Of a stretch of DNA of 64,000 nt, positions 27,798 through 41,550 are shown piece by piece. The notes beneath the pieces were generated by a model that searched no databases, was not told the origin of the DNA, and was given only the letters and a program-made list of their open reading frames with translations. Numbering within the stretch: position 1 is the first letter of the stretch; each line of letters opens with the position of its first letter. Position numbers and translations under genes: made by a program. This stretch comes from an uncultured Gemmatimonadota bacterium (GTDB lineage: Bacteria; ARS69), in assembly GCA_964571855.1 (NCBI GenBank), contig CAZNDO010000018.1:3886-67885 (forward strand), given 5' to 3'.

Positions 27798-30700
27798 CTA
27801 CGGCCCCGCTTCCGCATCCGGCAGCAGCGGCCTTGCCGCATCCGCCGCCGCCCCGATGCCCTCGGCCGCCCCGCGCCGCAGCCGCACGTCCTCGTCGGTG
27901 ACCCACGCGATGTCCAGCAGCCCGCCGCGCCGCTGCCCGGTGCGGAGGTAGTTCGCCTCGTCCAGGCTCCGGCTCCACCCGTCCAGCCACTGCTCCAGCT
28001 CGCGGCGCAGCGCCTCGTCGCCCTCGAAGTGGACGATCAGGTCGATGTCGCTGTCCGCCTCCGCCGTTCCGCTCTTCGTGTTCCCGGCCAGGTACACCTG
28101 CCGCACGGGCCAGCGGTCCCGGTCGATCTCCGCCGCCAGGCGCTGCGCCATGTACTCGCGCCAGGACGAGGCGTGGTGCGAATCCGCCGCGCCGTGCCCG
28201 TTCCCGCCGCGCACGCCGGGCGCCGCCACGAAGACGGCCACCGCCTTGTCCAGCTCCCCGTTCATGAGCACGCTGAGCGTCTTCCCGCCGAGCGTGGCCG
28301 GCACGTCGATCACCTTCACCACGTGCTCCAGGTCCGCGAACTCCGGCAGCAGCTCCGTGAGCACGCTGCGCGAGCCCGTGAGGAACCGCTCGTCCAGGAC
28401 GTTGCCCGGCTCGTCCGGGTACAGCGGCAGGTACCGGATCCCCGCTTCCACCAGATCCTGGAAGAAGTGCGTGCCGAACGACAGGTCCGGCATGTACCCC
28501 TCGCGCCGCCGCGCGATCTCGGCCAGCAGCGCCGTGTTGTTGATGTCCGAGTACGTGACGGACACGCCCAGCCGCACGTCGCCGCGGCTGCCCCACCGCC
28601 CGGGGCCGAGCAGGATGAACTGCCGCTTCGGCAGCATGGCGTTCAGCCGCCCCACGGCCCGCCCCACGCGCAGGAACGCCTCGTGGTCCGGCAGCCCCGC
28701 GTACTCCTCCGGGTCCACGTACACCACGTGCGTCACGTTCGTGGCCGAGCCGTTGGACACGTGCCGGTTCGCGGTGAACAGCGTCTCCTCCCGGCGCAGC
28801 GTGCGCGGGATGGGCGCCGGCTGCGGCGAGAGCGAGTAGCTCTGCGGCCGGCATTGCAACAGGTACAGGTGCTCCCCGTCGGACGCGAACTCGATGTCCA
28901 CCGGACCGCCGAGCTTCTTCTCCAGCAATTGCAACAGGCCGCGGATCTGCGCCACGAACGGCGTCTCGGCCACGAGCCCGTCGAACGTGACGATCCACGT
29001 GCCCGTCTCGAAGTTCGATCCCAGCCCCAGGGGCCGCACGAGCCGCCCGTCCTCGAACCGGGACACGAGCCGGCGGATCTCCGGGTACTCCCGCCCGCAC
29101 GTGCGCAGCATCGCCTCGAAGTCCGCGGTCTCGAAGGTCCCGGTCTCCAGGTCGATCGCGTCCACCTTGCTCGGCGCGTACCGGACGATCTCCTCCGGCG
29201 TGATGTTCGCGCGGATGCCGGGCTGCCCCGGCGCCAGCAGCACGGGATAGTCGTCCCCCAGCCGGTCCACGGCCCGCGTGCCCAGCCCCGGGACCAGCCG
29301 GATCAGCCCGTCGGAGCGGCGGATGCGCGGCGACCACCGGAAGTCGTTGTTGCTGAAGGCCACGCCGGCGAACGCGGGCAGGAAGTACCGCCCCACCTGC
29401 TTGCCCACGACCTCCTGGATCATGATGCCCATCTCCTCGTGCACGTCGAGGAGGTCGCGCTCCGCGCGGTACTGGATGGGATCGGGGCTGAAGATGGACG
29501 CGTACACCTCGGCGATGGCGTCCTGCAGCGCCTCCAGCCGCACGCGCTTGGACCCCCGGTTCGCCAGGAACAGGCTCTTGTACTTCCCGGAGAACGCGGC
29601 CTCGGTGCCGTCCTCCAGCAGGCTGGAGCTGCGCACGATCAGCGGCCGCTGCCCCAGGTCGTCCAGCGCGAGCGACAGCCCGCGGATCACGTCCGGCGGG
29701 AAGTGCGAGTTCTTGAAGAGCTGGATGACGTGCGGGTAGTCCTGCCGGATCTGGTCGATGTCCTGGTACTTCCGGTCGTACAGGTCCTCGAGGTTGTTGT
29801 AGCGGATGAAGTCCAGCTGCGCGTCCGACGCCACGTACCAGGTCCGCGGCACGCGCACGTCCGCGAAGAGGTCGTCCGTGGCGTGCCGCGCGAGCTGCAT
29901 GGCCACGAACAGCCCGGAGCTCTTGCCTCCGAGCTTCCCGCGGCTGCGCGGCGTGGCGATGATGCGCGGCGCGATGTCGCAGAAGTCCCCCACGCGCACG
30001 GCGTCGCGCGCGGCGGCGATGAACTCGGTGCGCTCGGAGAAGAACCGCCGCAGGAGCGCCACGCGCAGCTGCGTCTGCGAGGAGGGCGACAGCGTGCTCT
30101 CGTCCACCCCGGTCCGCCGGAACCGGTCCAGCGCCTCGGTGATGTCCGCGAGCGAGCTGTCCAGCCGCTCCAGCGCGCCGGCCAGGTCCGCGCTCTTGTC
30201 CTCCTGGATCCACTGCTGGATCCGCTTGAGGATCTCGGCCTCCGAGAGGTGCTCCTCCGCCACGTCGAACGTGCGCTTGACCAGGGAGTCCACCTCCACG
30301 TGCCGCTGCCGGGCGGACGGCCGGTTCTCGGTGGACGACCCGGATGCGCCCGTGGGATCCGGCGCGAACTCCCGCAGCAGCTCCGGCGCGCCGGGCACGC
30401 CGTGCCAGCAGAGGTAGTTGATCATCTTGCGGGTCATGCGGAGCAGCAGCGCCTGGTCCGTGCGCCGCAGGAAGTCCAGGATGACGCGCCAGTCCCGGCC
30501 CGGGCTGCCCGTCACGTCCGCGAGGTGCGCGTCCTCCTTGATGCGCTCCGCGCGCGCGCGGTGCGAGAGGCGCAGCCCGGTGAGCTTCGCGAGCGCGCCG
30601 AGCAGCCGGCGCTCGCCCTCCACGAACGGCCCGTCCGCGTCTCCCGGACGCTCCTCCGTGTAGTACACGGAGATCTCGCCCACGGGATAGCCGTCCACGT

Positions 30701-30959
30701 CCAGCGGCGCGCTGAGCCCCCACGGCCCGGCGCGGAAGCCGGGCGACTCGTAGCTCTTCCCCTCGAGCGCGATGCGGCAGTGGCAGACGTCCGAGTGGCG
30801 CCAGCCGCCGGGAATGGCGGCGGCCAGCGCCAGCAGCATCTCCTCGATGGGACGACGGCGCCGGGACAGGATCTCCTCGGCGCGGTACAGGCAGGCGAGC
30901 TCCTGCTCGCGCTTGCCCAGCTCGTCCCGGAGACGATCCGCATCGGAACGGACGCCCAA
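27798..30959 (-). CDS. PEP-utilising enzyme N-terminal (PPDK_N / PEP synthase ATP-grasp-like) domain protein with a possible GAF-like N-terminus and a C-terminal polymerase-beta-type nucleotidyltransferase domain
   Basis: The PPDK_N-like core is present (GGKSSGLFVAMQL...LIVRSSSLLEDGTEAAFSGKYKS...GIMIQEV). The C-terminal NTase motif is GNTKSGTAEADSDIDLIVHF. The start is tentatively the in-frame TTG after a GGAGGA; the internal ATG (MLLALAAA) is an alternative. Confidence 0.6.
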   Translation of the reverse strand: MGVRSDADRLRDELGKREQELACLYRAEEILSRRRRPIEEMLLALAAAIPGGWRHSDVCHCRIALEGKSYESPGFRAGPWGLSAPLDVDGYPVGEISVYYTEERPGDADGPFVEGERRLLGALAKLTGLRLSHRARAERIKEDAHLADVTGSPGRDWRVILDFLRRTDQALLLRMTRKMINYLCWHGVPGAPELLREFAPDPTGASGSSTENRPSARQRHVEVDSLVKRTFDVAEEHLSEAEILKRIQQWIQEDKSADLAGALERLDSSLADITEALDRFRRTGVDESTLSPSSQTQLRVALLRRFFSERTEFIAAARDAVRVGDFCDIAPRIIATPRSRGKLGGKSSGLFVAMQLARHATDDLFADVRVPRTWYVASDAQLDFIRYNNLEDLYDRKYQDIDQIRQDYPHVIQLFKNSHFPPDVIRGLSLALDDLGQRPLIVRSSSLLEDGTEAAFSGKYKSLFLANRGSKRVRLEALQDAIAEVYASIFSPDPIQYRAERDLLDVHEEMGIMIQEVVGKQVGRYFLPAFAGVAFSNNDFRWSPRIRRSDGLIRLVPGLGTRAVDRLGDDYPVLLAPGQPGIRANITPEEIVRYAPSKVDAIDLETGTFETADFEAMLRTCGREYPEIRRLVSRFEDGRLVRPLGLGSNFETGTWIVTFDGLVAETPFVAQIRGLLQLLEKKLGGPVDIEFASDGEHLYLLQCRPQSYSLSPQPAPIPRTLRREETLFTANRHVSNGSATNVTHVVYVDPEEYAGLPDHEAFLRVGRAVGRLNAMLPKRQFILLGPGRWGSRGDVRLGVSVTYSDINNTALLAEIARRREGYMPDLSFGTHFFQDLVEAGIRYLPLYPDEPGNVLDERFLTGSRSVLTELLPEFADLEHVVKVIDVPATLGGKTLSVLMNGELDKAVAVFVAAPGVRGGNGHGAADSHHASSWREYMAQRLAAEIDRDRWPVRQVYLAGNTKSGTAEADSDIDLIVHFEGDEALRRELEQWLDGWSRSLDEANYLRTGQRRGGLLDIAWVTDEDVRLRRGAAEGIGAAADAARPLLPDAEAGP

Positions 30960-30988: not shown

Positions 30989-32296
30989 TCAGACCCAGCC
31001 GCGCTCCCGGCACGCCTCGGCCACGCGCGTGATGCCGATGACGTACGCCGCGTCGCGCATGAACAGCTTCTCGCGCTGCGCCAGATCGTACGCGGAGTGG
31101 AACGCCGCCGTCATCTTCGTGTCCAGCTTCGTCAGCACCTCGTCCCGGCCCCAGAAGTAGTTCATGTTGCTCTGGACCTGCTCGAAGTAGCTGCAGGTGA
31201 CCCCGCCGGCATTCGCCAGGAAGTCCGGGATGACCATGATGCCGCGGCCCTTGATGACCTCGTCCGCCTCCAGCGTGGTCGGCCCGTTCGCGCCCTCCGC
31301 GATCAGCTTCACGGTGGGCTTGATGGCGTTCACGTTGTCGGCGTGGATCTGGTTCTCGTACGCGGCCGGGATGAGGATGTCCACCTCCTGCTCCAGCCAC
31401 GCATCCGCCGGCAGCAGCTCGTAGCCCGCGTCCCGGGCCTTCTGCTTGTCGATGCCGCCGAACCGGTCCGTGATGGACACGAGCTGGTCCATGTCGATGC
31501 CGTCGCGCTTGCGGAACGTGTAGGCGCGCTTGTCGCCCTGGTCCCAGCACGCCACGGCCACGACCTTGCCGCCCAGCTCCTGGTACAGCCGGATGGCGTA
31601 CTGCGCCACGTTGCCGAAGCCCTGCACGCTGGCCACGGTGCCCGCCGCCTTCTTGCCCATCGCGGCCAGGGCCTCGCGCACGGTGTAGATCACGCCGTAG
31701 CCCGTGGCCTCCACGCGCCCGAGCGACCCGCCCAGCGCCACCGGCTTGCCGGTGATGAAGCCGGGCGCGTGGGTGCCGGTGATGGCCTCGTATTCGTCCA
31801 GCATCCAGATCATGTGCCGGGCGGACGTCATCACGTCCGGCGCCGGGACGTCGGACTCGGGGCCCACGTTCCGCACGATCTGGCGCACCCACTTCCGGCA
31901 GATCTGCTCCTGCTCCCGGTCGCTCAGCTCGTGCGGGTCGCAGATCACGCCGCCCTTGGCGCCGCCGAGGGGGATGTCCGCGAGCGCGCACTTCCAGGTC
32001 ATCCACATCGAGAGGGCCCGGACCGTGTCCAGGGTCTCCTGGGGGTGGAAGCGGATGCCGCCCTTGCACGGCCCGCGCGCGTCGTTGTGCTGGACGCGGA
32101 ACCCCTTGAAGACGCGGCGGCTGCCGTCGTCCATCTTGATCGGCATGAGGAACGAGTACTCGCGCAGCGGCTCCCGCAGGAGCGCGCGCGTGGCGTCGTC
32201 CAGCCCGATCAGGTTGGCGACGCGGTCGAACTGACCCTGGGCCACGTGGAAGGCGTTGAACGGCTTCACCGGCCCGGCGGTGGTGGTGGCGGTCAT
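30989..32296 (-). CDS. gdhA: Glutamate dehydrogenase (NAD(P)+-dependent, GdhA-type)
   Basis: The Glu/Leu/Phe/Val dehydrogenase signature is present (KGGIRFHPQETLDTVRALSMWMTWKCALADIPLGGAKGG) with a Rossmann fold (GFGNVAQYA), at 435 aa. Confidence 0.95.
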   Translation of the reverse strand: MTATTTAGPVKPFNAFHVAQGQFDRVANLIGLDDATRALLREPLREYSFLMPIKMDDGSRRVFKGFRVQHNDARGPCKGGIRFHPQETLDTVRALSMWMTWKCALADIPLGGAKGGVICDPHELSDREQEQICRKWVRQIVRNVGPESDVPAPDVMTSARHMIWMLDEYEAITGTHAPGFITGKPVALGGSLGRVEATGYGVIYTVREALAAMGKKAAGTVASVQGFGNVAQYAIRLYQELGGKVVAVACWDQGDKRAYTFRKRDGIDMDQLVSITDRFGGIDKQKARDAGYELLPADAWLEQEVDILIPAAYENQIHADNVNAIKPTVKLIAEGANGPTTLEADEVIKGRGIMVIPDFLANAGGVTCSYFEQVQSNMNYFWGRDEVLTKLDTKMTAAFHSAYDLAQREKLFMRDAAYVIGITRVAEACRERGWV

Positions 32297-32443: not shown

Positions 32444-33985
32444 CTAGAACCGCCACCCCGCCGACGCGTGGATCTGCGTGGTCTTCTCCGCCGCCCCCCG
32501 GCTCCGCTCCACGGACGCCAGCACCAGCCAGGACCGCCCGACCGCGACGTCGGTGTCCAGGGACACCCAGGTCAGGCGCGTGTCGGCCCCCGTGGCCGCT
32601 GCGTGCTCCCGCCGCTCGCCGAGCGACGCTCCCACGTGCGCCCGGTTCGTCACGTTCATCCCCACGGTCCCCGACAGCAGCCAGCCGTCCGTGCGATCGG
32701 AGGTGTACCGCGTTGTCCGCGTGCTGCCCGTCAGGCTGCGGAAGCGCGCGGTGCCGGCGCGACCGCGCAGCGTGTACGCGTTCGTGCCGCCGGAGGAACC
32801 GCCGCCTGCGCGGCGGAAGTCCGCCGCCACGGACGCGCGTCGCGCCGGGCGGTACTCCAGGCCGCTCCAGTAGCCGTTGCGGTAGGCGTCGTCGAAGTCC
32901 GTCTCCGGGGTCACGAGGTTGCGGTACAGCCGCACGTTGCGCCGCGTGTCCGCCCCGCCGTCCACGGACCACTTGTCCGCGAAGCGCCAGCGGGCGTTCA
33001 CGAGCGCGCTCGTCGCCGTGACCGCGTCCTCCCCCGCCTTCCGCTTCCACCCGCGGGCCAGGTCCACTTCCTGCACGGCGAACGCCTCCAGCTTCCCGCC
33101 CGACATCCGGCCCTGCAGCGCGAAGTACTCGCGGTCGATCGTGGACCCCGCGTACGAGCCCACGGCCGCCAGCGTGAGCCGCCACAGGCCGGCCCGTCCG
33201 CCGCTGCCGCCGCGCTCGATCCACACGCCGTGCTCGCGGATGTCCGTGGACGTCCCGAAGGAGCGCGGGTCCGGCTGGTACCCGAAGAACCCGCCGGTCC
33301 CCCAGCGCTCGCCGCGCCACTCGGCCATGACGCCGTCGAACACGCCGACCGAACTGAGCGACGTGGACACCTGCCGCCCGAGGGCCGCGTGCGCGCCGCC
33401 GGTGGGGCGGCCGTACTCCGCGAGCAGCCGGTACACGCGCGTGCGCCCGGTGTCCTCGTCCGGCCGGTAGGTGCGGCGCGCGCGCGCGTCCACGGACACG
33501 CGCCACTCCCCCGCCACGCGTCCGTCCGCGCGCACGTCCACGCCCGGCTCGGAGTACCCGCGATCCAGGGACGACCCGTCCACGAGCCCCAGGTACCGCA
33601 CGTCGATGCGGCCGCGGAGCGGTCGGTCCCGCCGCGACGTCCGCGGCTTCGCCTCGGGCTTCGGCGCCTCGTCCACCACGGGCTCGCCCGCGCGCACGGG
33701 GCGGAAGGTGACGGCATCGCCCACGCGGATCTCCGCGTCCGGCTCCACGCGCCGGCAGGACGCGCGTTTGGACGACAGCGCGGTCACCTCGAGCCACGTC
33801 ACGAGCAGTCCCTCGCGGCGCACCTCGACCACCTCGCCCTTCGCCAGACCGGCCTCCGTGCCGGCGTCCACGTACACCGTGGTGGTCGTGACATAGCTGA
33901 CGGCGGCGCGAACGGTCTCCGCCGCGCGGGACGGGACCGCCGTGGCGAGCAGCACGGCGAGGGCGAGAGCGACGGCGCGCGGCAT
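32444..33985 (-). CDS. Outer-membrane beta-barrel protein (513 aa) translationally coupled to the upstream multihaem cytochromes; a putative porin component of a cytochrome conduit
   Basis: The signal peptide is MPRAVALALAVLLATAVPSRAAE. There are abundant amphipathic beta-strands rich in R, Y, W and G. The C-terminus is ...SAGWRF with a terminal Phe, the OMP beta-signal. The start ATG overlaps the upstream stop (ATGA). Confidence 0.7.
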   Translation of the reverse strand: MPRAVALALAVLLATAVPSRAAETVRAAVSYVTTTTVYVDAGTEAGLAKGEVVEVRREGLLVTWLEVTALSSKRASCRRVEPDAEIRVGDAVTFRPVRAGEPVVDEAPKPEAKPRTSRRDRPLRGRIDVRYLGLVDGSSLDRGYSEPGVDVRADGRVAGEWRVSVDARARRTYRPDEDTGRTRVYRLLAEYGRPTGGAHAALGRQVSTSLSSVGVFDGVMAEWRGERWGTGGFFGYQPDPRSFGTSTDIREHGVWIERGGSGGRAGLWRLTLAAVGSYAGSTIDREYFALQGRMSGGKLEAFAVQEVDLARGWKRKAGEDAVTATSALVNARWRFADKWSVDGGADTRRNVRLYRNLVTPETDFDDAYRNGYWSGLEYRPARRASVAADFRRAGGGSSGGTNAYTLRGRAGTARFRSLTGSTRTTRYTSDRTDGWLLSGTVGMNVTNRAHVGASLGERREHAAATGADTRLTWVSLDTDVAVGRSWLVLASVERSRGAAEKTTQIHASAGWRF

Positions 33986-35271
33986 CAGTGCCTCCCGTCC
34001 GGATGGCAGCGGTAGCAGGCCGCGCTGTTGTACGCGTACCCGGGTTCGCCGCGGTGCTTGTTGTCCACCTCGCTGCGATTCGAGTGCTCGTGGCACAGGA
34101 TGCACTCGAACACGGCGTAGTTCGCGGGCGCCACGTGGCAGTCCGCGCAAGCGGACCACTTCCCGCGATGCGTGCCGCTGTTGATCGGGAAGTAGCGGCC
34201 GTCGTGGTCGAACGTGGCGCCGTACCAGCCGGACGTGCCGTGGCAGTCGGCGCAGGACGTGGGGAACCCCGTGCCGGCGTGCGGCGGGTTCGTCGTGGCG
34301 TCGTACTCGCCGCGATGGCAGCCCACGCACTCGGGGGAGAGCGGTCCGATGGGTCCCGTGCCGTGGCAGGCCGCGCACTCGGCGCCGGCGTGCCGCCCCG
34401 TGAGCGCGAACCCGGTGACCGCATGGTCGAACGACGCGCCGTCCCAGCTCGCCGTCCCGTGGCAGCGTGCGCAGTCCGTGGGAAAGCCCACGGAGGCATG
34501 CGCCGGCGCCGTCGTGGCGTCGTAGTCCGCGCGGTGGCAGCTCACGCACTCCGCGGACACGCGCGCCGGCGGACCCTCGCCGTGGCACGACGCGCACTGC
34601 ACGCCGATGTGCGCACCGGTGAGCGGGAACGCGGTGGCGGAGTGGTCGAACGTGCCGCCCGCGAAGGACGACGTGGAGTGGCACCGCGCACAGTCCGTGG
34701 AGTACCCGCCCGCCACGTGGTCCGGGTTCTTCGCCGCCTGGTAATCCGCCAGGTGGCAGCCCTCGCACGTCTCCGCCGTCCCCGCGAAGCGCATGGCGCT
34801 CCCCGCCTGCGGCCGGTGGCAGGCCGCGCAGTCCGTGGTCAGGTGCGCGCCGGTCAGCGGGAACCGGCCGAGGCGATGCTGCCGCACGGCCTCCGCGCGA
34901 TCGATGAAGTCCCGCGTGGTGTGGCAGCGCGCGCAATCGATCCCCATCTCGCCCCGGTGCACGTCCTGGTGGCAGTCCGCGCAGCGGCTCCCGGACGTCT
35001 CCGCGAACTCCAGCGACGTGTGGCACAGGAGGCACGGCACGTCCTTGTGCGAGCCGTCCAGCGGAAAGCCGAACCGCGAGTGGTCGAACTCCGCGGTCGG
35101 CTTCGCCGGCGTCCACGACTCAGCCCGGTGGCACAGCGCGCAGTCCTGCTTGAAGGAACCGTGCGGGTTCGGCGTGGCCACCTGCGGCGTGACGGCCGCG
35201 GACGGCTCCGCGCCGCGGGCCGCCACGGGCAGGATCGCCATGACGAGAAGCACGGGCAGATGACGGAGCAT
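33985..35271 (-). CDS. Multihaem c-type cytochrome (16 CxxCH in 428 aa), secreted
   Basis: The signal peptide is MLRHLPVLLVMAILPVAARGA. Sixteen CxxCH motifs were counted. It is a paralog of the upstream 25-haem gene, and about 200 aa of the N-terminus are nearly identical. The start overlaps the upstream stop. Confidence 0.85.
   Translation of the reverse strand: MLRHLPVLLVMAILPVAARGAEPSAAVTPQVATPNPHGSFKQDCALCHRAESWTPAKPTAEFDHSRFGFPLDGSHKDVPCLLCHTSLEFAETSGSRCADCHQDVHRGEMGIDCARCHTTRDFIDRAEAVRQHRLGRFPLTGAHLTTDCAACHRPQAGSAMRFAGTAETCEGCHLADYQAAKNPDHVAGGYSTDCARCHSTSSFAGGTFDHSATAFPLTGAHIGVQCASCHGEGPPARVSAECVSCHRADYDATTAPAHASVGFPTDCARCHGTASWDGASFDHAVTGFALTGRHAGAECAACHGTGPIGPLSPECVGCHRGEYDATTNPPHAGTGFPTSCADCHGTSGWYGATFDHDGRYFPINSGTHRGKWSACADCHVAPANYAVFECILCHEHSNRSEVDNKHRGEPGYAYNSAACYRCHPDGRH
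34600..35190 (-). repeat. About 590-bp segment roughly 90% identical to 36535-37125. It is the shared N-terminal tetra/octahaem module of the 16-haem and 25-haem paralogous cytochrome genes.
   Basis: The two DNA stretches align by eye nearly base for base (for example cttcgccggcgtccacgactc[a/g]gcccggtggca[c/a]agcgcgcagtcctgcttgaaggaaccgtgcgggttcggcgtggccacctgcgg). Confidence 0.8.
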
Positions 35272-37274
35272 CACGACCTCCCGTCCGGGTGGCAGCGGTA
35301 GCACGCCGCGCTGTTGTAGGAGTACCCGGACTCCCCCTGGTGGTCCCGATCCACCTTCGCACGGTCGGAGTGCTGGTGACACAGGATGCACTCGAAGACC
35401 GAGTAGTTCGTGGGCGACACGTGGCAGTCCGCGCACGTGGACCACTCGCCGCGGTGCCGGCCGCTGTAGATCGGGAAGTACAGACCGTCGTGATCGAACG
35501 TGGCGCCGTCCCAGCCGGTCGTGCCGTGGCAGGCCGCGCAGTCCGTGGGGAACCCGGCGCCCGCGTGCGGCGGGCTCGTGGTGGCGTCGTACTCCGGGCG
35601 GTGACAATCCACGCACTCCGGCGACAGTGATCCGATCGGGCCCGTGCCGTGGCACGCGGCGCACTCGGCGGCGGCGTGCCGGCCGGTCAACGGGAAACCG
35701 GTGGAGGCGTGATCGAACGACGCGCCGTCCCAGCTCGCCGTCCCGTGGCAGGTGACGCAGTCCGTGGGGAATCCCACCGACGCGTGGCTCGGGGACGTCG
35801 TGCCGTCGTAGTCGGCGCGGTGGCACCCCACGCACTCCAGCGGCGGCGGGCCGGAGCCGCCGTGGCATTGCGCGCACGTCGCGATCAGGTGCGCGCCCGT
35901 CAGCGGGAATCCGGTGGTGGAGTGGTTGAACGTGGCGCCCGGCCACCCGGAGGTCCCGTGGCACGAGGCGCAATCCGTGGAGAAGCCCACCGCCGCATGG
36001 TTCGGATCCGTGCTCGCGTCGTACTCGCCGCGATGGCAGTCCACGCACTCCGGCGAGATCGACCCGATCGGCCCCGTGCCGTGGCAGGCCGCGCACTCCG
36101 GCCCCAGGTGGCGGCCGGTGAGAGGGAAGCCGGTGGACGCGTGATCGAACGACGCCCCGTCCCAGCTCGCCGTCCCGTGGCACGTCACGCAGTCGGTGGG
36201 AAAACCCACGGACGCGTGGCTCGGGGCGGTGGTGCCGTCGTAGTCCGCGCGGTGGCAGCCCACGCACTCGGACGGCGGCGCGCTGCCCGTCGCGCCGCCA
36301 TGGCAGTCCGCGCACGACGTCACGACGTGCGCGCCGGTCAGCGGGAAGCCCGTCCCGGCGTGGTCGAACGTGGCCGTTCCCCATGCGACGGTGGAGTGGC
36401 AGGACGCGCAGTCCGTGGGGAAGCCGACCGCGGCATGCGGCGGGTCGAGCGTGGCGTCGTAGTCCGCGCGGTGGCAGCTCGCGCACTCGGCGGACACCGG
36501 TCCCGGCGGGCCCTCGCCGTGGCACGCCGCGCACTGCACGCTCGTGTGCGCCCCGGTCAGCGGGAACGCAGTGGCGGAGTGATCGAATGTTCCGCCCGCG
36601 AACGACGACGTGGAGTGGCAGGCCGCACAGTCCGTGGAGAAGCCGCCGGCCACGTGGTCCGGGGACTTCGCCGCCTGGTAGTCCGCCATGTGGCAGCCTT
36701 CGCAGGTCTCCGACGTCCCCGCGAACCGCATGGCGCTCCCGGCCTGCGGCCGGTGGCACGCGGCGCAGTCCGTGGTCAGGTGCGCGCCGGTGAGGGGGAA
36801 GCGTCCCAGGCGGTGCTTGCGCACGGCCTCCGCGCGGTCGATGAAGTCCCGCGTGTCGTGGCAGCGAGCGCAGTCCATGCCCATCTCGCCGCGGTGCACG
36901 TCCTGGTGGCAGTCCGCGCACCGGCTCCCCGACGTCTCGGCGAACTCCAGCGACGTATGGCACAGGAGGCACGGAACGTCCTTGTGCGAACCGTCCAGCG
37001 GGAAGCCGGTCTTCGAGTGATCGAAGTCCGTGGGGCTCTTCGCCGGCGTCCACGACTCGGCCCGGTGGCAAAGCGCGCAGTCCTGCTTGAAGGAACCGTG
37101 CGGGTTCGGCGTGGCCACCTGCGGCTTCGCGGGTGCGGACCCGGACGCCGCGGCGCCCTCCCCGGCAGCGGACGAAGCCGCCGGCATCGCGGCGAGCGCG
37201 AGCGCCCCGGCTTGGACGGACAGGCGGAAGAGCAGGCGGACCGCGGGCGGGCGGCGGATCATGGCGAACCTCAT
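35271..37274 (-). CDS. Multihaem c-type cytochrome (25 CxxCH in 667 aa), secreted, built from repeated ~50-aa dihaem modules
   Basis: The signal peptide is MRFAMIRRPPAVRLLFRLSVQAGALALAA. Twenty-five CxxCH motifs were counted by hand. An internal near-identical ~144-aa tandem duplication is present. The start ATG overlaps the upstream stop (ATGA). Confidence 0.85.
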   Translation of the reverse strand: MRFAMIRRPPAVRLLFRLSVQAGALALAAMPAASSAAGEGAAASGSAPAKPQVATPNPHGSFKQDCALCHRAESWTPAKSPTDFDHSKTGFPLDGSHKDVPCLLCHTSLEFAETSGSRCADCHQDVHRGEMGMDCARCHDTRDFIDRAEAVRKHRLGRFPLTGAHLTTDCAACHRPQAGSAMRFAGTSETCEGCHMADYQAAKSPDHVAGGFSTDCAACHSTSSFAGGTFDHSATAFPLTGAHTSVQCAACHGEGPPGPVSAECASCHRADYDATLDPPHAAVGFPTDCASCHSTVAWGTATFDHAGTGFPLTGAHVVTSCADCHGGATGSAPPSECVGCHRADYDGTTAPSHASVGFPTDCVTCHGTASWDGASFDHASTGFPLTGRHLGPECAACHGTGPIGSISPECVDCHRGEYDASTDPNHAAVGFSTDCASCHGTSGWPGATFNHSTTGFPLTGAHLIATCAQCHGGSGPPPLECVGCHRADYDGTTSPSHASVGFPTDCVTCHGTASWDGASFDHASTGFPLTGRHAAAECAACHGTGPIGSLSPECVDCHRPEYDATTSPPHAGAGFPTDCAACHGTTGWDGATFDHDGLYFPIYSGRHRGEWSTCADCHVSPTNYSVFECILCHQHSDRAKVDRDHQGESGYSYNSAACYRCHPDGRS
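35477..36269 (-). repeat. Intragenic tandem duplication (2 x ~432 bp) inside the 25-haem cytochrome gene; each copy encodes a ~144-aa, 6-CxxCH module
   Basis: Protein residues 336-479 and 480-~600 are near-identical (ECVGCHRADYDGTT[A/S]PSHASVGFPTDCVTCHGTASWDGASFDHASTGFPLTGRH...). The corresponding DNA is visibly near-identical. Confidence 0.8.
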
Positions 37275-39031
37275 CCGGGGGATCCGGTGGACTGCGGGGT
37301 CCCGGCCACGTGGCAGGCCTCGCACGCGGTGGGCGCTCCCACCCACACCGCGCCGCGCTTCCCGTCCGGCAGGGTCCCCTCGGCGTGGCAGGCCGCACAC
37401 GCCACCTTCGCGTGGGCGCCGGCCAGCGGGAACTTCGTCTTCTCGTGATCGAAGCGGACGGCCGGCCGGAACGTGTCCGCGCCGTGGCAGACGCTGCACT
37501 CGTCCCCGCCCTTGCGCTTCGCGAACTGGCCGCCGTGCGGGTCCTCGTGGCAGTCCCGGCAGGCACGCGCCTTCTCCTGGAACGACAGATCCGGCCACGC
37601 CTTCGCGGTCCCGAGCAGCGTGGACTCCGGGTGCTTCGTCTCCAGGCCCTGGTGGCACAGGAAGCACGGCACGGCCGCGTGCGCGCCCTCCAGCGGGAAC
37701 TCGTACGCCGCGTGCGCCGCCGGGTCCACGCGGGAGGGCGCGAACGCCGCCGGATCGTGGCAGGCAAGGCACTTGTCGTCGGTGGCCCCGAGCGCCTCGC
37801 GATGCGGGTCCGCGTGGCAGTCCACGCACTGCATGGTCTGGAACCGCAGCAGCACGCCGGCGGTCCCGATGCGCTTCGCGTCCGGCAGGGGCGGCAGGTG
37901 CGCGCGCTGCGGTCCGTGGCACGCCTCGCACGCCGCCTTCTCGTGCGCGCCCTGCAGCGGGAAGCGCAGCGCCGCGTGGTCCGCCACCGTGAACTTCGCG
38001 GGGCGGAACGTGGTCACGTCGTGGCAGCTCTCGCAGCGCCCGCCGTCGGCGCGACGCGCGAGCTGCCCGCCGTGCGCGTCCGCGTGGCAGTCCGCGCACT
38101 TCGCGAACGCGGGCCGGAACCGGAAGGGCACCGCCGGGTCCTTCGAGGCGTGGCACTCCCGGCACGCGACCGCGCGGTGCTTCCCTTCCAGCGCGTACTT
38201 CGCCTTCGCGTGCCGCGTCACGTCGAACGTGGACGGCACGAAGCCCTCCACGCGGTGGCACGATTCGCAGTCCACGGCCGCGCCGGCGAGCGTGGCCTCG
38301 CCGCGGTGCGGATCCGCGTGGCAGTCCACGCACTTCGCGAATGCCGGCAGCACGTCGTAGCCGTCCTTGTGGCACTTCGCGCACTCCAGCGCGCGGTGCT
38401 TCCCGCGCAGCGGGTAGCGCGTCTTCTCGTGGTCGAACGCGCCCTGCACCACCTGCTTCCAGTCCGCGGTGGTGTGGCACTCCGTGCAGTTCGCGCCGAA
38501 GCGGTCCTTGTGCGGATCGGCGTGGCAGGAGAGGCACTGCGTCTCCAGGCCCAGCCGGGAGTCGTCCGCCACCCGGCCCTTGCGCTTCGCGAGGGCCGCG
38601 GACTTGCGCAACTCCGGGCGGTGGCACTTCGCGCACTCCAGGGACGCGTGCTTCCCGTCCAGCGCCCACCCGGTCTTCGCATGGTCGAAGGCGTCGTCGC
38701 CCGCCCACTCCACGAGCGGGAAGTCCACGCCGCCGTGCTCCACGTGGCACTCGGCGCAGGCGCCGGCCGCATCGCGCGCGTGGAAGCCGCGCCCGGCCTC
38801 GCGCAGCGCGGCGATCTCGCCGTGGCAGGAGAGGCACTGCGCGTCCACGCCCTTCTCCTTGATGCCGTGGCAGGCCAGGCAGTTCTTCACGCCCTCCAGG
38901 TCCGCGTGCGCGCGCGACAGCGGCCCCGGGGAGATCTGGCCCCGGGTCGGAGCGGCGGGCAGGAGGAAGGACACGGCCAACGTCATGACGATCGTCCGGA
39001 GCGGGCCGCCGCGCCGTCTACGCGGGAGCAC
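37271..39031 (-). CDS. Multihaem c-type cytochrome (20 CxxCH in ~586 aa), secreted
   Basis: Twenty CxxCH motifs are present (CLACH, CLSCH, CAECH, ...). A hydrophobic N-terminal signal (MTLAVSFLLPAAP) is present. Start is either the GTG at 39031 or the ATG at 38986. The stop overlaps the downstream start. Confidence 0.8.
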   Translation of the reverse strand: MLPRRRRGGPLRTIVMTLAVSFLLPAAPTRGQISPGPLSRAHADLEGVKNCLACHGIKEKGVDAQCLSCHGEIAALREAGRGFHARDAAGACAECHVEHGGVDFPLVEWAGDDAFDHAKTGWALDGKHASLECAKCHRPELRKSAALAKRKGRVADDSRLGLETQCLSCHADPHKDRFGANCTECHTTADWKQVVQGAFDHEKTRYPLRGKHRALECAKCHKDGYDVLPAFAKCVDCHADPHRGEATLAGAAVDCESCHRVEGFVPSTFDVTRHAKAKYALEGKHRAVACRECHASKDPAVPFRFRPAFAKCADCHADAHGGQLARRADGGRCESCHDVTTFRPAKFTVADHAALRFPLQGAHEKAACEACHGPQRAHLPPLPDAKRIGTAGVLLRFQTMQCVDCHADPHREALGATDDKCLACHDPAAFAPSRVDPAAHAAYEFPLEGAHAAVPCFLCHQGLETKHPESTLLGTAKAWPDLSFQEKARACRDCHEDPHGGQFAKRKGGDECSVCHGADTFRPAVRFDHEKTKFPLAGAHAKVACAACHAEGTLPDGKRGAVWVGAPTACEACHVAGTPQSTGSPG

Positions 39032-40451
39032 CGGCTTTCGCCTCCTCGAGCGGAATGGCCTTCGTGACCATGCGGATGCCCGCCTTCTCCAGGAACGCGG
39101 CCGGCGGCTCGCCGCCGATGCGCACGATCACGTCGTCGTTGGGGAGGGTGAGGACCTTGCCGCCGGCCTCGATCTCCACGGCGTCCGCGCGGATGGCCTT
39201 CACCGCGCTTTCGCGCAGGATCCGCACCTTCCCGTTGCGCTCGGCCTCCGCCAGCTTCTGCCGGTTGCGCTCCTTCGCGCGGTCGAAGTCCGCCTTGCGG
39301 TGGCTGAGCACGACCTCGGTGCCCTCCTGGTTCGCGAGGCCCAGCGCGGACTCCAGCGCGCTGTCCCCGCCGCCGACCACGAGCACCTTCCGGCCCTTGA
39401 ATTCCTCCATCTCCACGATGTCGTAGAAGACCTTCTCGGTCTCCTCCCCCGGCACGCCGAGGCGGCGCGGCGTGCCGCGCCGGCCGAGCGCCAGGATCAC
39501 GCGGCGCGCGCGCACCTCGAACCCCTGGCCGCGCACGGCGATGGACGCCCCTTCGCGCGCCACCTCCTCCACGCGCCGGTTCGACAGCACCGTGAGGCCG
39601 CTCTGCTCCACCATCGCCTCCCACACGGCGAGGAGCGTCTCCTTCGAGGCGTCCGCCACCCAAAGGTCCCCGTACAGCGGCACCTTGATCGGCTCCGCGA
39701 GCAGCAGCTTGTGGCGCGGGTACTTGCGGATCGTGTCGGCCAGGCTGCCCTGATCCAGGATCACGAAGTCCAGTCCCGCCTTGCGGGCGGTGAGCGCGGC
39801 GCTCAGCCCGGCCGGGCCGGAGCCCACGATCGCGAGGTCGTGCACGCTGCCGCACGCGCCGGTCCCGCACGCCTGCAGCTCGCGCGCCGCGTTCTCCGCG
39901 GCCACGCGGCCCTCGTTGATGGCGTTCTTGATGAGCCCGCGCCCGCCGAGCTCGCCCACGATGTACACGCCCGGCACGTTCGACTGGAAGTCCGCCTTCA
40001 GATCCGGCACGGTCACGCGGTGCACGGCCGCGCCCGTGGCGATCACGATGCCGCCCACCGGGCACGCCTCCGCGCACTTCCCGTGTCCCTTGCAGCGATC
40101 CTTCTCCACGATGGCCAGCTTGCCCTCGAGGCGGATGGCGCCGGGCTCGGGGCACACGGGGACGCAACAGCCGCAGCCCACGCACACGTCCGCGCGGACA
40201 ATGGCGTGCGGGGCCGCATCGTCGGCCGGCGCGGCGGCCGGGTCCGGGGCGGCCTCCACCTCGGCGGCGGCGATCTCGAACACCTGCATCGGGACGTCGC
40301 AACCGGGGCAGCGCGAGGCGCCCGCGGGGACCTCGCCGCCGCACCGGGGGCACGCGGTGCGCGGCCCGCCGCCCTTGCGGCGGATCTGCCACGCCATGAG
40401 CGCCGCGGTGAGGACGGCGAAGGCGACCGTCGCGAGGACGCCGGAGTTCAT
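39018..40451 (-). CDS. Membrane-anchored iron-sulfur flavoprotein: N-terminal TM helix, zinc-ribbon, 2x[4Fe-4S] ferredoxin domain and a thioredoxin-reductase-like FAD/NAD(P)-binding oxidoreductase domain
   Basis: The TM segment is VLATVAFAVLTAALMAWQI and the zinc-ribbon is CPRCGG..CPGC. Ferredoxin motifs CVGCGCCVPVCP and CKGHGKCAEACP are present. There are two Rossmann GxGxxG motifs (AIVGSGPAGL, VLVVGGGDSAL). The start ATG overlaps the upstream stop. Confidence 0.8.
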   Translation of the reverse strand: MNSGVLATVAFAVLTAALMAWQIRRKGGGPRTACPRCGGEVPAGASRCPGCDVPMQVFEIAAAEVEAAPDPAAAPADDAAPHAIVRADVCVGCGCCVPVCPEPGAIRLEGKLAIVEKDRCKGHGKCAEACPVGGIVIATGAAVHRVTVPDLKADFQSNVPGVYIVGELGGRGLIKNAINEGRVAAENAARELQACGTGACGSVHDLAIVGSGPAGLSAALTARKAGLDFVILDQGSLADTIRKYPRHKLLLAEPIKVPLYGDLWVADASKETLLAVWEAMVEQSGLTVLSNRRVEEVAREGASIAVRGQGFEVRARRVILALGRRGTPRRLGVPGEETEKVFYDIVEMEEFKGRKVLVVGGGDSALESALGLANQEGTEVVLSHRKADFDRAKERNRQKLAEAERNGKVRILRESAVKAIRADAVEIEAGGKVLTLPNDDVIVRIGGEPPAAFLEKAGIRMVTKAIPLEEAKAGAPA

Positions 40452-41404
40452 CAGCGCAGCCACGTGTCGCTGAACAGGATCGCCACCGCCACGTGCACCG
40501 CCACCGCGAGGAACGCCATGATCGCGAAGGGCATGTGGAACGCGTGCCACAACCGGAACACGCGGTTCGTGGCATCCAGGATGCGGATTTGCTGGCCGAG
40601 CGCCATCTCGCGGCGCGCGAGACGGGTGACCTTCCGCACCTCGCGCGCGTCGAACCTCCGCTTCGACGTGCGCATGCCCGCCTCGAGGCGATGCACGGCA
40701 CGGCGACGATCGAGGTCGTCGCGCAGCATGCGCCCGAGGGCACGCACCACGCCGCCCCGGGGCGCCACGTCCACCGGCTTCAGCAGCTCGAGGATCTCGC
40801 GCGGGTCCAGGCCGGTGGACTCCACCAGCGTGCCGAGGATCTCGCGGCGCTCCGCGGAGACCTGCTCGCGCGTGAGCTCCAGCCCGGCCCGCCCGCGCGG
40901 GATGCGCACGTACAGGTACCGGCCCACCACGCCCGAGCACGCCACCACGAGCATCGAGAAGTACCCGAGCCCGATGAGCCCCTCGAACCGGAACCCCGCG
41001 TGCACCGCGCCCGCCAGCGGCATCAGCACGCCGGCCACGATGTGCGCGTCCAGCCAGCGCGGGATGGGGCCGAGGAACGTGGCGGACGAGAGGCGCTTCC
41101 GCACCGGGTAGAGCCACAGGAAGGCGAACAGCGCGAAGGCCAGGAGGCCGGCGGACTGCCCCACGTACCCCGTGGGACCCAGCCACTCGTGCCAGGGATT
41201 GCGGAGCCGCTCCCCGAACGGCAGGGCGTAGTACGAAGCCCCCGCCGCCGCCACGAGCAGCAACGGGAACACGCCGACGAGCACCGCGCGCGGCACGAAG
41301 GGCGGCGCGACGGAGCGGACGGCCGGGGACGCCGGCTCGGTTGCCTTGGCCGGCTTCCCCGGCGCCGCACTTGCCCGCGGCGCCGCCAGTTCGGTGGTGG
41401 CCAT
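40451..41404 (-). CDS. Integral membrane protein with two conserved His pairs spaced 13-14 residues apart in TM helices; a putative di-haem b-type cytochrome / ferric-reductase-like electron-transfer subunit
   Basis: There are about 6 TM helices. The His pairs are AHIVAGVLMPLAGAVHAGF and HAFHMPFAIMAFLAVAVHV. It is the first gene of the operon. The start is taken at the internal ATG (MATTEL...); the upstream ATG at 41467 is the alternative. Confidence 0.5.
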   Translation of the reverse strand: MATTELAAPRASAAPGKPAKATEPASPAVRSVAPPFVPRAVLVGVFPLLLVAAAGASYYALPFGERLRNPWHEWLGPTGYVGQSAGLLAFALFAFLWLYPVRKRLSSATFLGPIPRWLDAHIVAGVLMPLAGAVHAGFRFEGLIGLGYFSMLVVACSGVVGRYLYVRIPRGRAGLELTREQVSAERREILGTLVESTGLDPREILELLKPVDVAPRGGVVRALGRMLRDDLDRRRAVHRLEAGMRTSKRRFDAREVRKVTRLARREMALGQQIRILDATNRVFRLWHAFHMPFAIMAFLAVAVHVAVAILFSDTWLR

Positions 41405-41550
41405 GCCCGTCGTCCCGTCCTCCCGTCGATGCAGGAACGTCCTCCCGCGTGTGCATTCTGCGACCACGCGGTGCGCAAAGAGGGCCCGGTCCCCCCCTTC
41501 GCGCCGGGCGGGATGTGGTGCCGCGACTCCGGAATTCCCCGAAAAGGGGG

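What the first reader, a model, noticed from the sequence alone, without database searches (positions are those of the whole stretch)
40451..41404. First operon gene: membrane protein with H-x13-H and H-x13-H pairs in adjacent TM helices (candidate di-haem b subunit)
The His spacing (AHIVAGVLMPLAGAVHAGF and HAFHMPFAIMAFLAVAVHV) matches the bis-His ligation geometry of ferric-reductase/NOX-like and cytochrome b561-like di-haem proteins. Placed directly before a Fe-S flavoprotein and multihaem cytochromes, it could be the transmembrane electron wire of the system. I recognised no named family.
Basis: inference. Interest (0 to 1): 0.6.

Follow-up and report, generated by a model that had tools for sequence, protein, structure and literature searches.

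The report
Two-haem membrane wire for electron export
This gene encodes a five-helix inner-membrane protein with four invariant histidines, most likely holding two b-type haems, that probably passes electrons from a cytoplasmic NAD(P)H-type iron-sulfur flavoprotein to giant multi-haem cytochromes and an outer-membrane pore. The protein class was already predicted in 2017, but it has never been tested experimentally.

Summary
Window 40451-41404 (minus strand) encodes a 317-aa protein with five TM helices. H121-x13-H135 lies on TM3 and H290-x13-H304 on TM5. All four His are kept in all 217 full-length homologues examined.

He et al. 2017 (PMC5566968) described this class as the "IMP" of PCC3/PCC4 porin-cytochrome clusters: ~300 aa, five TM, WX3HX13H on TM3 and TM5, SGXXG on TM4. 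The window protein has every one of these features.

Pfam matches to DUF4405, Ferric_reduct, Ni_hydr_CYTB and PepSY_TM recur across the family but stay below threshold. hhalign against MsrQ and Foldseek against the PDB were negative, so membership of a named family is not shown.

- The gene is almost always adjacent to a membrane-anchored 2x[4Fe-4S] plus TrxR-like flavoprotein (77 of 80 loci).
- Giant multihaem cytochromes follow (61 CXXCH motifs in this window).
- A ~22-strand outer-membrane barrel follows them.
- Close relatives occur in 517 species genomes, and the best 80 matches are all uncultured MAGs.
- The same cluster sits on a plasmid of the cultured Emticicia oligotrophica.

I infer a NOX-like, quinone-independent electron export route. 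Haem binding and direction of flow are untested.

The parts
40451..41404 (-). IMP: 317-aa five-TM inner-membrane protein, candidate di-haem b subunit (N-terminus in, C-terminus out)
   Evidence: ORF, hydropathy, K/R distribution; AF2 pLDDT 83.5, helices 37-54, 80-104, 114-135, 142-166, 253-311; large family of hypothetical proteins.
40991..41056 (-). TM3 with W117-x3-H121-x13-H135. H121 lies near the cytoplasmic face and H135 near the periplasmic face.
   Evidence: H121 and H135 invariant; W117 and P129 nearly invariant. W117, H121 and H135 lie within 40 degrees on a helical wheel.
40913..40981 (-). TM4 with the S157-G-V-V-G161 (SGxxG) motif
   Evidence: G158 and G161 invariant, S157 at least 90%. 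This is the motif He et al. 2017 named for TM4.
40550..40912 (-). Cytoplasmic helical domain (residues 165-285, 29 K/R). It continues as one long helix into TM5 and is a candidate docking surface for the flavoprotein.
   Evidence: conserved D230, R233, Q271, R274, L276, T279. The docking role is an inference.
40475..40549 (-). TM5 with W286-x3-H290-x13-H304 (also H287)
   Evidence: W286, H290 and H304 invariant. W286, H290, A297, A300, V301 and H304 lie on one helical face. Pfam DUF4405 and Ni_hydr_CYTB sub-threshold matches map here.
39018..40454 (-). Membrane-anchored Fe-S flavoprotein: N-terminal TM helix (residues 5-21), zinc ribbon, two [4Fe-4S] motifs, and a TrxR/YpdA-like FAD + NAD(P)H domain with no redox-active CxxC
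   Evidence: Pyr_redox_3 E 1.7e-40, Fer4 families; motif and anchor conservation; ATGA overlap with the IMP stop codon.
40062..40187 (-). Fe-S motifs of the flavoprotein: C90xxC93xxC96xxxC100P and C120xxH123xxC126xxxC130P (His replaces the second Cys)
   Evidence: the first motif is in 79 of 81 homologues; His at the second position of the second motif is in 77 of 81.
37271..39031 (-). Multihaem cytochrome c, 586 aa, 20 CXXCH, N-terminal signal/anchor
35271..37274 (-). Multihaem cytochrome c, 667 aa, 25 CXXCH
   Evidence: paralogue of the next gene.
33985..35271 (-). Multihaem cytochrome c, 428 aa, 16 CXXCH
32444..33985 (-). Outer-membrane beta-barrel (513 aa, signal peptide, C-terminal ...GWRF): the porin of the conduit
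   Evidence: sequence; AF2 pLDDT 84, ~22 long strands; Foldseek PDB: PapC/FimD usher pores and porins, E ~1e-9; a homologue is present in 48 of 49 loci with at least 9 kb downstream.
41536..41550 (.). GC-rich hairpin between the NlpC/P60 stop codon and the IMP start: a possible boundary of the transcription unit
   Evidence: Pattern match only.

Best explanation
The gene encodes the inner-membrane electron-transfer subunit of a porin-cytochrome type system. The protein spans the membrane five times. H121 (TM3) with H290 (TM5) would ligate a b-haem near the cytoplasmic face, and H135 with H304 a second b-haem near the periplasmic face. This geometry is also used by NOX/FRE ferric-reductase domains and by cytochrome b. 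On the cytoplasmic side, the partner is most likely the co-translated flavoprotein, which is tethered by its own TM helix. The proposed path is NAD(P)H -> FAD -> two [4Fe-4S] clusters -> cytoplasmic haem b -> periplasmic haem b. On the outside, the electrons pass to three multihaem cytochromes (61 haem motifs) and through a ~22-strand outer-membrane barrel to an extracellular acceptor. The route would bypass the quinone pool. It would be driven outward both by redox potential and by the membrane potential, so it is a dissipative, NOX-like electron outlet rather than a proton-pumping respiratory step. Shown here: the anatomy, the invariance of the His and other motifs, the topology prediction, the gene linkage and the barrel fold. 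Inferred: haem binding, the physical contact with the flavoprotein, NAD(P)H as donor and the direction of flow.
For: 1. Four invariant His in two W-x3-H-x13-H helices, plus SGxxG on TM4, across 97-217 homologues.
2. Topology is N-in/C-out with K/R-rich cytoplasmic loops, which puts one His of each pair at each membrane face.
3. Sub-threshold Pfam similarity recurs to four haem-b membrane families, and the matches fall on TM2-TM3 and TM5: DUF4405 in 65 of 97 members (best E 5.7e-6), Ferric_reduct in 42, Ni_hydr_CYTB in 32, PepSY_TM in 4. A DUF4405 protein was shown to bind haem b (PMC11334425).
4. A flavoprotein homologue lies in 77 of 80 distinct loci: immediately downstream in 57, immediately upstream and divergent in 18, elsewhere in the locus in 2. 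Two of the 3 loci without one are cut contigs. The pairing also holds at 31% identity and on the Emticicia plasmid.
5. The partner changes form while keeping its chemistry. It is a split ferredoxin plus Pyr_redox_2 flavoprotein in L093. It is an FNR-like FAD/NAD protein with 2Fe-2S next to a short IMP-like protein and a heptahaem cytochrome in Acetobacter aceti. In the published ptd operon it is separate FAD/NAD(P) and 2x4Fe-4S proteins.
6. 65 of 73 flavoproteins have an N-terminal TM anchor followed by K/R residues, and none of the flavin domains examined has a redox CxxC.
7. Start/stop overlaps link the first six genes of the operon.
8. The last gene models as an outer-membrane barrel.
9. 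Related loci carry a median of 54 CXXCH motifs.
Against: No experiment exists for any member of the class. Foldseek of the AF2 model against the PDB found no significant match. The PDB sequence search found nothing. hhalign against E. coli MsrQ, CybB and HyaC and against a 7-sequence MsrQ alignment was not significant. No Pfam gathering score is reached by the window protein or by the ten other members whose scores were read. I could not measure His-His distances in the model. The published PCC3 clusters of iron oxidisers have an IMP with the same motifs but no flavoprotein, and their authors proposed a quinone-linked, inward-flow role. Apparent IMP-flavoprotein fusion proteins in the databases proved to be frameshift artefacts, so there is no fusion evidence for contact.
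Confidence: 0.62

Rival explanations
1. Quinone-linked cytochrome b (the model of He et al. 2017). The IMP exchanges electrons with the membrane quinone pool, as the cytochrome b subunits of bc1 or of [NiFe] hydrogenase do. The flavoprotein would be an accessory or unrelated enzyme.
For: This was proposed for IMPs with the same motifs in PCC3/PCC4. PCC3 clusters of Gallionellaceae have no flavoprotein. Sub-threshold Ni_hydr_CYTB similarity occurs in 32 of 97 members.
Against: The IMP is near-obligatorily adjacent to a membrane-tethered NAD(P)H-type Fe-S flavoprotein and is translationally coupled to it. In divergent relatives that partner is replaced by non-homologous NAD(P)H-flavin-FeS reductases. 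No quinone-site motif was identified, though none could be tested.
Confidence: 0.2
2. Inward electron uptake. The conduit oxidises extracellular Fe(II), Mn(II) or a partner cell or cathode. The IMP carries the electrons inward to the flavoprotein, which reduces NAD(P)+ or a ferredoxin.
For: PCC3/PCC4 were discovered in iron oxidisers and modelled as uptake routes. Multihaem conduits such as Mto/Mtr are reversible according to PMC10734462.
Against: From established bioenergetics, reducing NAD(P)+ (about -320 mV) from Fe(II)-type donors is uphill. Moving electrons inward also works against an inside-negative membrane potential, and the cluster contains no energy-coupling module. The host lineages are not known iron oxidisers (my own knowledge).
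Confidence: 0.1
3. Not a haem protein. The conserved His bind another metal or act in transport or signalling, for example a metal permease or a sensor using the cytoplasmic helical domain.
For: There is no direct evidence of haem. The weak Foldseek hits include chemoreceptor-type helical bundles (E about 0.5-1). Family thresholds are not reached by the members whose scores were read.
Against: The only recurring family signals are to haem-b membrane proteins. The 14-residue His spacing on two helices and the same-face geometry fit bis-His ligation of two haems. All neighbours are redox proteins. No transporter or sensor family matched.
Confidence: 0.06

Closest known systems
'IMP' of the PCC3/PCC4 porin-cytochrome gene clusters (He et al. 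2017, PMC5566968); PtdF of the ptd operon (bioRxiv 10.1101/2023.11.21.568154)
   Same: About 300 aa and five TM helices. WX3HX13H on TM3 and TM5, and SGXXG on TM4. Encoded beside very large multihaem cytochromes and a porin. Predicted to hold two b haems and to carry electrons across the inner membrane. PCC4/Ptd also carry FAD/NAD(P) and 4Fe-4S proteins.
   Different: Here the Fe-S and flavin modules are fused into one TM-anchored protein that is translationally coupled to the IMP. The gene order is IMP-flavoprotein-cytochromes-porin. The hosts are Gemmatimonadota, Eisenbacteria, Krumholzibacteriota, Latescibacteria, Acidobacteriota and a Bacteroidota plasmid rather than Proteobacteria. Published PCC3 has no flavoprotein, and the published model is quinone-linked. 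Sequence homology to a PCC3 IMP could not be tested.
Ferric reductase domain superfamily (NOX, FRE, MsrQ, STEAP; Pfam PF01794)
   Same: Two His on TM3 and two on TM5 with 12-13 residue spacing. Electrons come from a cytoplasmic NAD(P)H flavoenzyme and go to an acceptor outside. IMP plus the flavoprotein's TM anchor add up to six helices followed by a cytoplasmic dehydrogenase, as in NOX. The W-x3-H motif is shared with MsrQ TM5.
   Different: Five TM helices, not six, with a 120-residue cytoplasmic insert before TM5. The dehydrogenase is a separate TrxR-like protein with two Fe-S clusters, not a fused FNR-like domain. The Pfam score is 11.6 bits against a cut-off of 28, and hhalign against MsrQ is not significant.
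DUF4405 / FezC transmembrane cytochromes (PMC11334425)
   Same: This is the best recurring Pfam signal: 65 of 97 members, best E 5.7e-6. Both have four central His in a TM bundle. Haem b binding was shown experimentally for one DUF4405 protein and for FezC.
   Different: DUF4405 is described with six TM helices and is associated with ApbE flavinylation systems, not with multihaem cytochromes. The window protein scores 15.4 bits against a cut-off of 26.7.
Cytochrome b of bc1/b6f and HyaC/CybB-type cytochromes b
   Same: H-x13-H on two helices ligating a low-potential and a high-potential haem across the membrane (cytochrome b, from established knowledge). Sub-threshold Ni_hydr_CYTB similarity on TM5.
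   Different: There is no detectable homology by hhalign to E. coli CybB or HyaC. No quinone-site evidence was found. The helix count differs.

Membership tests
PCC3/PCC4-type IMP (He et al. 2017) | About 300 aa with five predicted TM helices | tested here: met
   317 aa; five hydrophobic segments and five long AF2 helices.
PCC3/PCC4-type IMP (He et al. 2017) | WX3HX13H on TM3 and on TM5 | tested here: met
   W117-H121-H135 and W286-H290-H304. All four His and W286 are invariant; W117 is at least 90% conserved.
PCC3/PCC4-type IMP (He et al. 2017) | SGXXG on TM4 | tested here: met
   S157-G158-V-V-G161; both Gly invariant.
PCC3/PCC4-type IMP (He et al. 2017) | Encoded with multihaem cytochromes and an outer-membrane porin | tested here: met
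   Cytochromes with 20, 25 and 16 CXXCH motifs, plus a ~22-strand barrel. A porin homologue is in 48 of 49 related loci.
PCC3/PCC4-type IMP (He et al. 2017) | Sequence homology to a reference PCC3 IMP (for example from Sideroxydans lithotrophicus ES-1) | not tested
   The reference sequences are given only as IMG gene ids in the paper's supplement.
Pfam Ferric_reduct (PF01794, FRD) | Score at or above the gathering cut-off (28 bits) | tested here: not met
   11.3-11.6 bits for the window protein. The best of the ten other members read reached 22.2 bits. 42 of 97 members match at E<=1.
Pfam Ferric_reduct (PF01794, FRD) | Profile-level homology to a bona fide member (MsrQ) | tested here: not met
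   hhalign of A2 against the 7-sequence MsrQ alignment A4 gave probability 0.2%, E 0.36; against the single MsrQ sequence, probability 0.3%. The MsrQ profile was shallow (Neff 2.8), so the test is weak.
Pfam Ferric_reduct (PF01794, FRD) | Six TM helices with bis-His pairs on TM3 and TM5 | tested here: inconclusive
   The His pairs are on TM3 and TM5, but the protein has five helices. A sixth is supplied only in trans by the flavoprotein's anchor.
Pfam DUF4405 (PF14358) | Score at or above the gathering cut-off (26.7 bits) | tested here: not met
   15.3-15.4 bits for the window protein. 65 of 97 members match at E<=1. The best E of 5.7e-6 would be about 27 bits by extrapolation, so one unidentified member may just reach the cut-off.
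Di-haem b transmembrane cytochromes in general | Binds two b-type haems through four TM histidines | not testable with these tools
Di-haem b transmembrane cytochromes in general | Fold similarity to a solved di-haem membrane cytochrome | tested here: not met
   Foldseek against the PDB: best E 0.47, TM-score about 0.2, no cytochrome among the top 50. The long cytoplasmic helices probably dominate the global comparison.

The most novel reading that the evidence does not exclude
A quinone-independent, NOX-like extracellular electron-transfer machine. A split 'bacterial NADPH oxidase' is made of a TM-anchored TrxR-type Fe-S flavoprotein plus a five-TM di-haem b protein. It feeds cytoplasmic NAD(P)H electrons directly into cytochromes with more than 50 haems in total and an outer-membrane barrel. 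Close relatives occur in 517 species genomes, and the best 80 matches are all uncultured soil and sediment lineages (Gemmatimonadota, Eisenbacteria, Krumholzibacteriota, Latescibacteria, Acidobacteriota). The cluster is also mobile on a plasmid in a cultured Bacteroidota.
Probability: 0.4. Interest if true: 0.75.

Novelty: new variant of a known kind. Interest (0 to 1): 0.5.

Why it matters
Known routes for extracellular electron transfer start at the quinone pool (CymA, ImcH, CbcL and similar). If this module takes electrons straight from NAD(P)H, it would be a different way to wire metabolism to minerals, humics or partner cells. It would work as a redox safety valve rather than a respiratory chain. 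It would also give abundant but uncultured soil and sediment phyla an unrecognised role in metal and carbon redox cycling. The class has been predicted since 2017 but no member has been tested. The Emticicia oligotrophica DSM 17448 plasmid copy found here offers a cultured starting point. The module is compact (two inner-membrane genes plus cytochromes and a porin), which could also interest people who engineer electroactive cells.

Tried and rejected
1. Named-family assignment. Pfam and NCBIfam give nothing above threshold.
2. PDB sequence search with two profiles. No relevant hits.
3. Foldseek of the IMP model against the PDB. Only insignificant helical-bundle hits.
5. hhalign of the family profile against E. 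coli MsrQ, CybB and HyaC, and against a purpose-built 7-sequence MsrQ alignment. Not significant, although the W-x3-H...H helices line up.
6. 'Rosetta stone' fusions. Database proteins P0132, P0134 and P0142 looked like IMP-flavoprotein fusions. They are frameshifted read-throughs with out-of-frame filler between the two similarity blocks, so I rejected them.
7. Iron-acquisition context. FeoB is next to the cluster on one contig only (L004/L013), not generally, so I dropped this.
8. The many long ORFs on the opposite strand, such as 38469-41111 (+), are artefacts of 73% GC. The third-position GC profile supports only the minus-strand genes.
9. Direct comparison with a published PCC3 IMP sequence was not possible, because only IMG ids are given.
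Full report
**What is at the coordinates**

The finding's interval is a gene on the minus strand. It runs from the ATG at 41404 to the stop at 40451 and encodes 317 aa. An upstream GTG at 41467 is a possible alternative start. An identical 317-aa protein is already in public collections as an unnamed prediction.

The window has 73% GC, and many long ORFs on other frames are artefacts. The third-position GC profile supports only the minus-strand genes.

The two H-x13-H pairs are H121/H135 and H290/H304. Two or more such pairs arise in 0.54% of shuffles of this sequence.

**Anatomy**

Hydropathy gives five TM segments:
- TM1, about residues 39-60
- TM2, about residues 80-99
- TM3, about residues 117-138
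- TM4, about residues 142-164
- TM5, about residues 286-310

Lys/Arg are concentrated in the N-terminus, in the TM2-TM3 loop (4 K/R, 0 D/E) and in the TM4-TM5 region (29 K/R). This gives an N-in, C-out topology.

An AlphaFold2 model built on 25 homologues is confident (pLDDT 83.5, pTM 0.72). It shows the same helices, with TM5 as the end of a single 59-residue helix that projects into the cytoplasm.

The His pairs are therefore on TM3 and TM5. TM4 and a ~120-residue cytoplasmic helical domain separate them, so they are not on helices adjacent in sequence. H121 and H290 lie toward the cytoplasmic face, and H135 and H304 toward the periplasmic face.

On a helical wheel, W117/H121/H135 fall on one face of TM3, and W286/H290/A297/A300/V301/H304 on one face of TM5. 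I could not measure distances because model coordinates are not exposed.

**Conservation and family size**

The word-indexed search scored 821 homologues at E<=1e-3. All carry 'hypothetical' labels or no name, and none has a Pfam domain. An exhaustive profile search found 3057 clusters (50% identity) at E<=1e-3, of which 322 are at E<=1e-30.

In 97 diverse members (down to ~24% identity) the invariant columns are G86, Y99, K103, H121, H135, G158, G161, W286, H290 and H304. All 217 full-length sequences among the 268 collected keep all four His.

**Relation to named families**

The window protein matches DUF4405 (E 0.03, on TM5) and Ferric_reduct (E 0.3-0.4, on TM2-TM3). Both are far below the curated cut-offs, and NCBIfam gives nothing.

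I then scanned all 97 members individually. The families hit by most members were:
- DUF4405: 65 members, best E 5.7e-6
- Ferric_reduct: 42 members, best E 1.5e-4
- Ni_hydr_CYTB: 32 members, best E 1.1e-4
- PepSY_TM: 4 members

No other family was hit by more than three members. The matched stretches are always the His-bearing helices. All four are families of membrane proteins that bind b haem through TM histidines. Haem b binding was shown experimentally for a DUF4405 protein and for FezC (PMC11334425).

Against this, several tests were negative. A PDB sequence search found nothing relevant. Foldseek of the model against the PDB gave no significant hit. hhalign against E. coli MsrQ, CybB and HyaC, and against a 7-sequence MsrQ alignment that I assembled from plasmid records, was not significant. 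That MsrQ profile was shallow.

My conclusion is that the protein resembles this group of cytochromes in motif and design. Membership of any one named family is not demonstrated.

**The operon**

Start/stop overlaps link six minus-strand genes:
1. The IMP.
2. A 478-aa flavoprotein.
3. A cytochrome with 20 CXXCH.
4. A cytochrome with 25 CXXCH.
5. A cytochrome with 16 CXXCH.
6. A 513-aa secreted protein ending in GWRF.

The last protein has no Pfam match. It models as a ~22-strand beta-barrel (pLDDT 84). Its structural neighbours are outer-membrane pores such as PapC/FimD and porins, with E about 1e-9.

The flavoprotein has these features:
- an N-terminal TM helix followed by RRK
- a zinc ribbon
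- a CxxCxxCxxxCP motif and a CxxHxxCxxxCP motif
- a TrxR/YpdA-like FAD and NAD(P)H domain (Pyr_redox_3, E 1.7e-40)
- GxGxxG and GGGDSA motifs
- no redox-active CxxC

It therefore resembles TrxR-type ferredoxin-NADP+ reductases rather than disulfide reductases. Its homologues carry only generic annotations.

**Conservation of context**

Close relatives of the IMP occur in 517 species-representative genomes. The best 80 are all MAGs of Gemmatimonadota, Eisenbacteria, Krumholzibacteriota, Latescibacteria, Acidobacteriota, Myxococcales and Binatia. The nearest is an uncultured Gemmatimonadota bacterium at 89% identity.

In 80 distinct loci the flavoprotein gene sits as follows:
- directly downstream on the same strand: 57 loci
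- directly upstream and divergent: 18 loci
- elsewhere in the locus: 2 loci
- absent: 3 loci, two of which are truncated contigs

In a divergently arranged example that I read in full (L028), the flavoprotein keeps the TM anchor and both Fe-S motifs. Other counts across the loci:
- A porin homologue is present in 48 of 49 loci with at least 9 kb downstream.
- Loci carry a median of 54 CXXCH motifs.
- The flavoprotein's TM anchor is present in 65 of 73 homologues.
- The His-substituted cluster motif is present in 77 of 81.

The arrangement persists in a member only 31% identical to the window protein.

It also occurs on plasmid pEMTOL02 of the cultured Emticicia oligotrophica DSM 17448. There the order is ccsA, IMP, flavoprotein, a 23-haem cytochrome, a 40-haem cytochrome and a 538-aa hypothetical protein.

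More distant relatives swap the partner while keeping its chemistry:
- A separate small 2x[4Fe-4S] ferredoxin plus a Pyr_redox_2 flavoprotein.
- On an Acetobacter aceti plasmid, an FNR-like FAD_binding_6/NAD_binding_1/2Fe-2S protein next to a 242-aa IMP-like protein and a heptahaem cytochrome.

**Mechanism**

I infer an electron path from NAD(P)H to FAD, through the two Fe-S clusters, to the cytoplasmic haem b and then to the periplasmic haem b. From there it passes to the multihaem cytochromes and out through the barrel.

Outward flow is downhill in potential and is helped by an inside-negative membrane potential. It conserves no energy. Functionally the system resembles NOX, FRE, MsrQ and STEAP rather than quinol-dependent EET modules.

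The IMP's five helices plus the flavoprotein's anchor reproduce the 'six helices plus cytoplasmic dehydrogenase' plan of NOX, but with a non-homologous dehydrogenase. Haem binding, the subunit contact, the donor and the direction of flow are all inferences.

**What is already known**

He et al. 2017 (PMC5566968) described the conserved 'IMP' of the PCC3 and PCC4 clusters. It has five TM helices, WX3HX13H on TM3 and TM5, SGXXG on TM4 and about 300 aa. They likened it to FRD and cytochrome b and proposed that it binds two b haems and talks to the quinone pool. They also listed MHC-IMP-'other redox protein' clusters.

Later work on PCC3 keeps a four-gene picture without a flavoprotein and notes that its function is untested. 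A 2023-24 preprint named a PCC4-like operon ptdABCDEFG. It has a 'ferric reductase-like' membrane protein, an FAD/NAD(P) oxidoreductase and a 2x4Fe-4S protein, and its function is unknown.

The window protein meets every published motif criterion of this class. The differences are:
- the fused, membrane-tethered Fe-S flavoprotein partner
- the gene order
- the host range
- the mechanistic implication: NAD(P)H-linked and outward, rather than quinone-linked and inward

I found no paper describing this variant in four further searches.

**Verdict**

I rate the finding a new variant of a known, predicted and uncharacterised kind, of moderate interest.

Noticed in passing
window 40062-40187 (-), flavoprotein residues 90-131: The second ferredoxin-type motif is CxxHxxCxxxCP, with His in place of the second Cys. 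This is conserved in 77 of 81 homologues. From my own knowledge, His-ligated [4Fe-4S] clusters are typically electron entry or exit points, as in the distal cluster of [NiFe] hydrogenases. This one may be the cluster that faces the membrane haem.
   Followed up: partly
L091 (Emticicia oligotrophica DSM 17448 plasmid pEMTOL02, NC_018749.1 78197-89995): A cultured Bacteroidota isolate carries the whole module on a plasmid, directly after a fused ccsA cytochrome-c biogenesis gene. The order is IMP, flavoprotein, a 23-haem cytochrome, a 40-haem cytochrome and a 538-aa hypothetical protein in the porin position. This suggests horizontal mobility and offers an experimental host.
   Followed up: partly
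L092 (Acetobacter aceti plasmid NZ_AP023328.1 55193-57915): A mini-version of the module sits next to copper-resistance genes. It comprises an FNR-like FAD/NAD/2Fe-2S reductase, a 242-aa IMP-like protein with two HX13H helices and SGYVG, and a heptahaem cytochrome, with no porin.
   Followed up: partly
window 33985-37274 (-): The 25-haem and 16-haem cytochromes are tandem paralogues, 69% identical over 431 aa, with nearly identical N- and C-terminal parts. The longer one looks like an internal expansion of CXXCH-containing repeats.
   Followed up: partly
database proteins P0132, P0134, P0142: Public metagenome predictions that look like IMP-flavoprotein fusions are frameshift read-throughs in stop-poor, high-GC sequence. 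They could mislead domain-architecture surveys.
   Followed up: yes
window 27798-30959 (-): A ~1050-aa protein combines a PPDK_N (PEP-utilising, ATP-grasp) domain with a C-terminal nucleotidyltransferase domain. It lies downstream of a glutamate dehydrogenase gene (30989-32296). Its function is unknown and it does not appear to be part of the conduit.
   Followed up: no
window 24755-27451 (-): An 898-aa Ser/Thr protein kinase with an N-terminal zinc ribbon lies further downstream on the same strand.
   Followed up: no
window 41536-41550: A GC-rich hairpin (CCCCC-TTTTC-GGGGA on the minus strand) sits immediately after the NlpC/P60 stop codon. It may terminate the gatCAB-NlpC/P60 unit ahead of the IMP operon.
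   Followed up: partly
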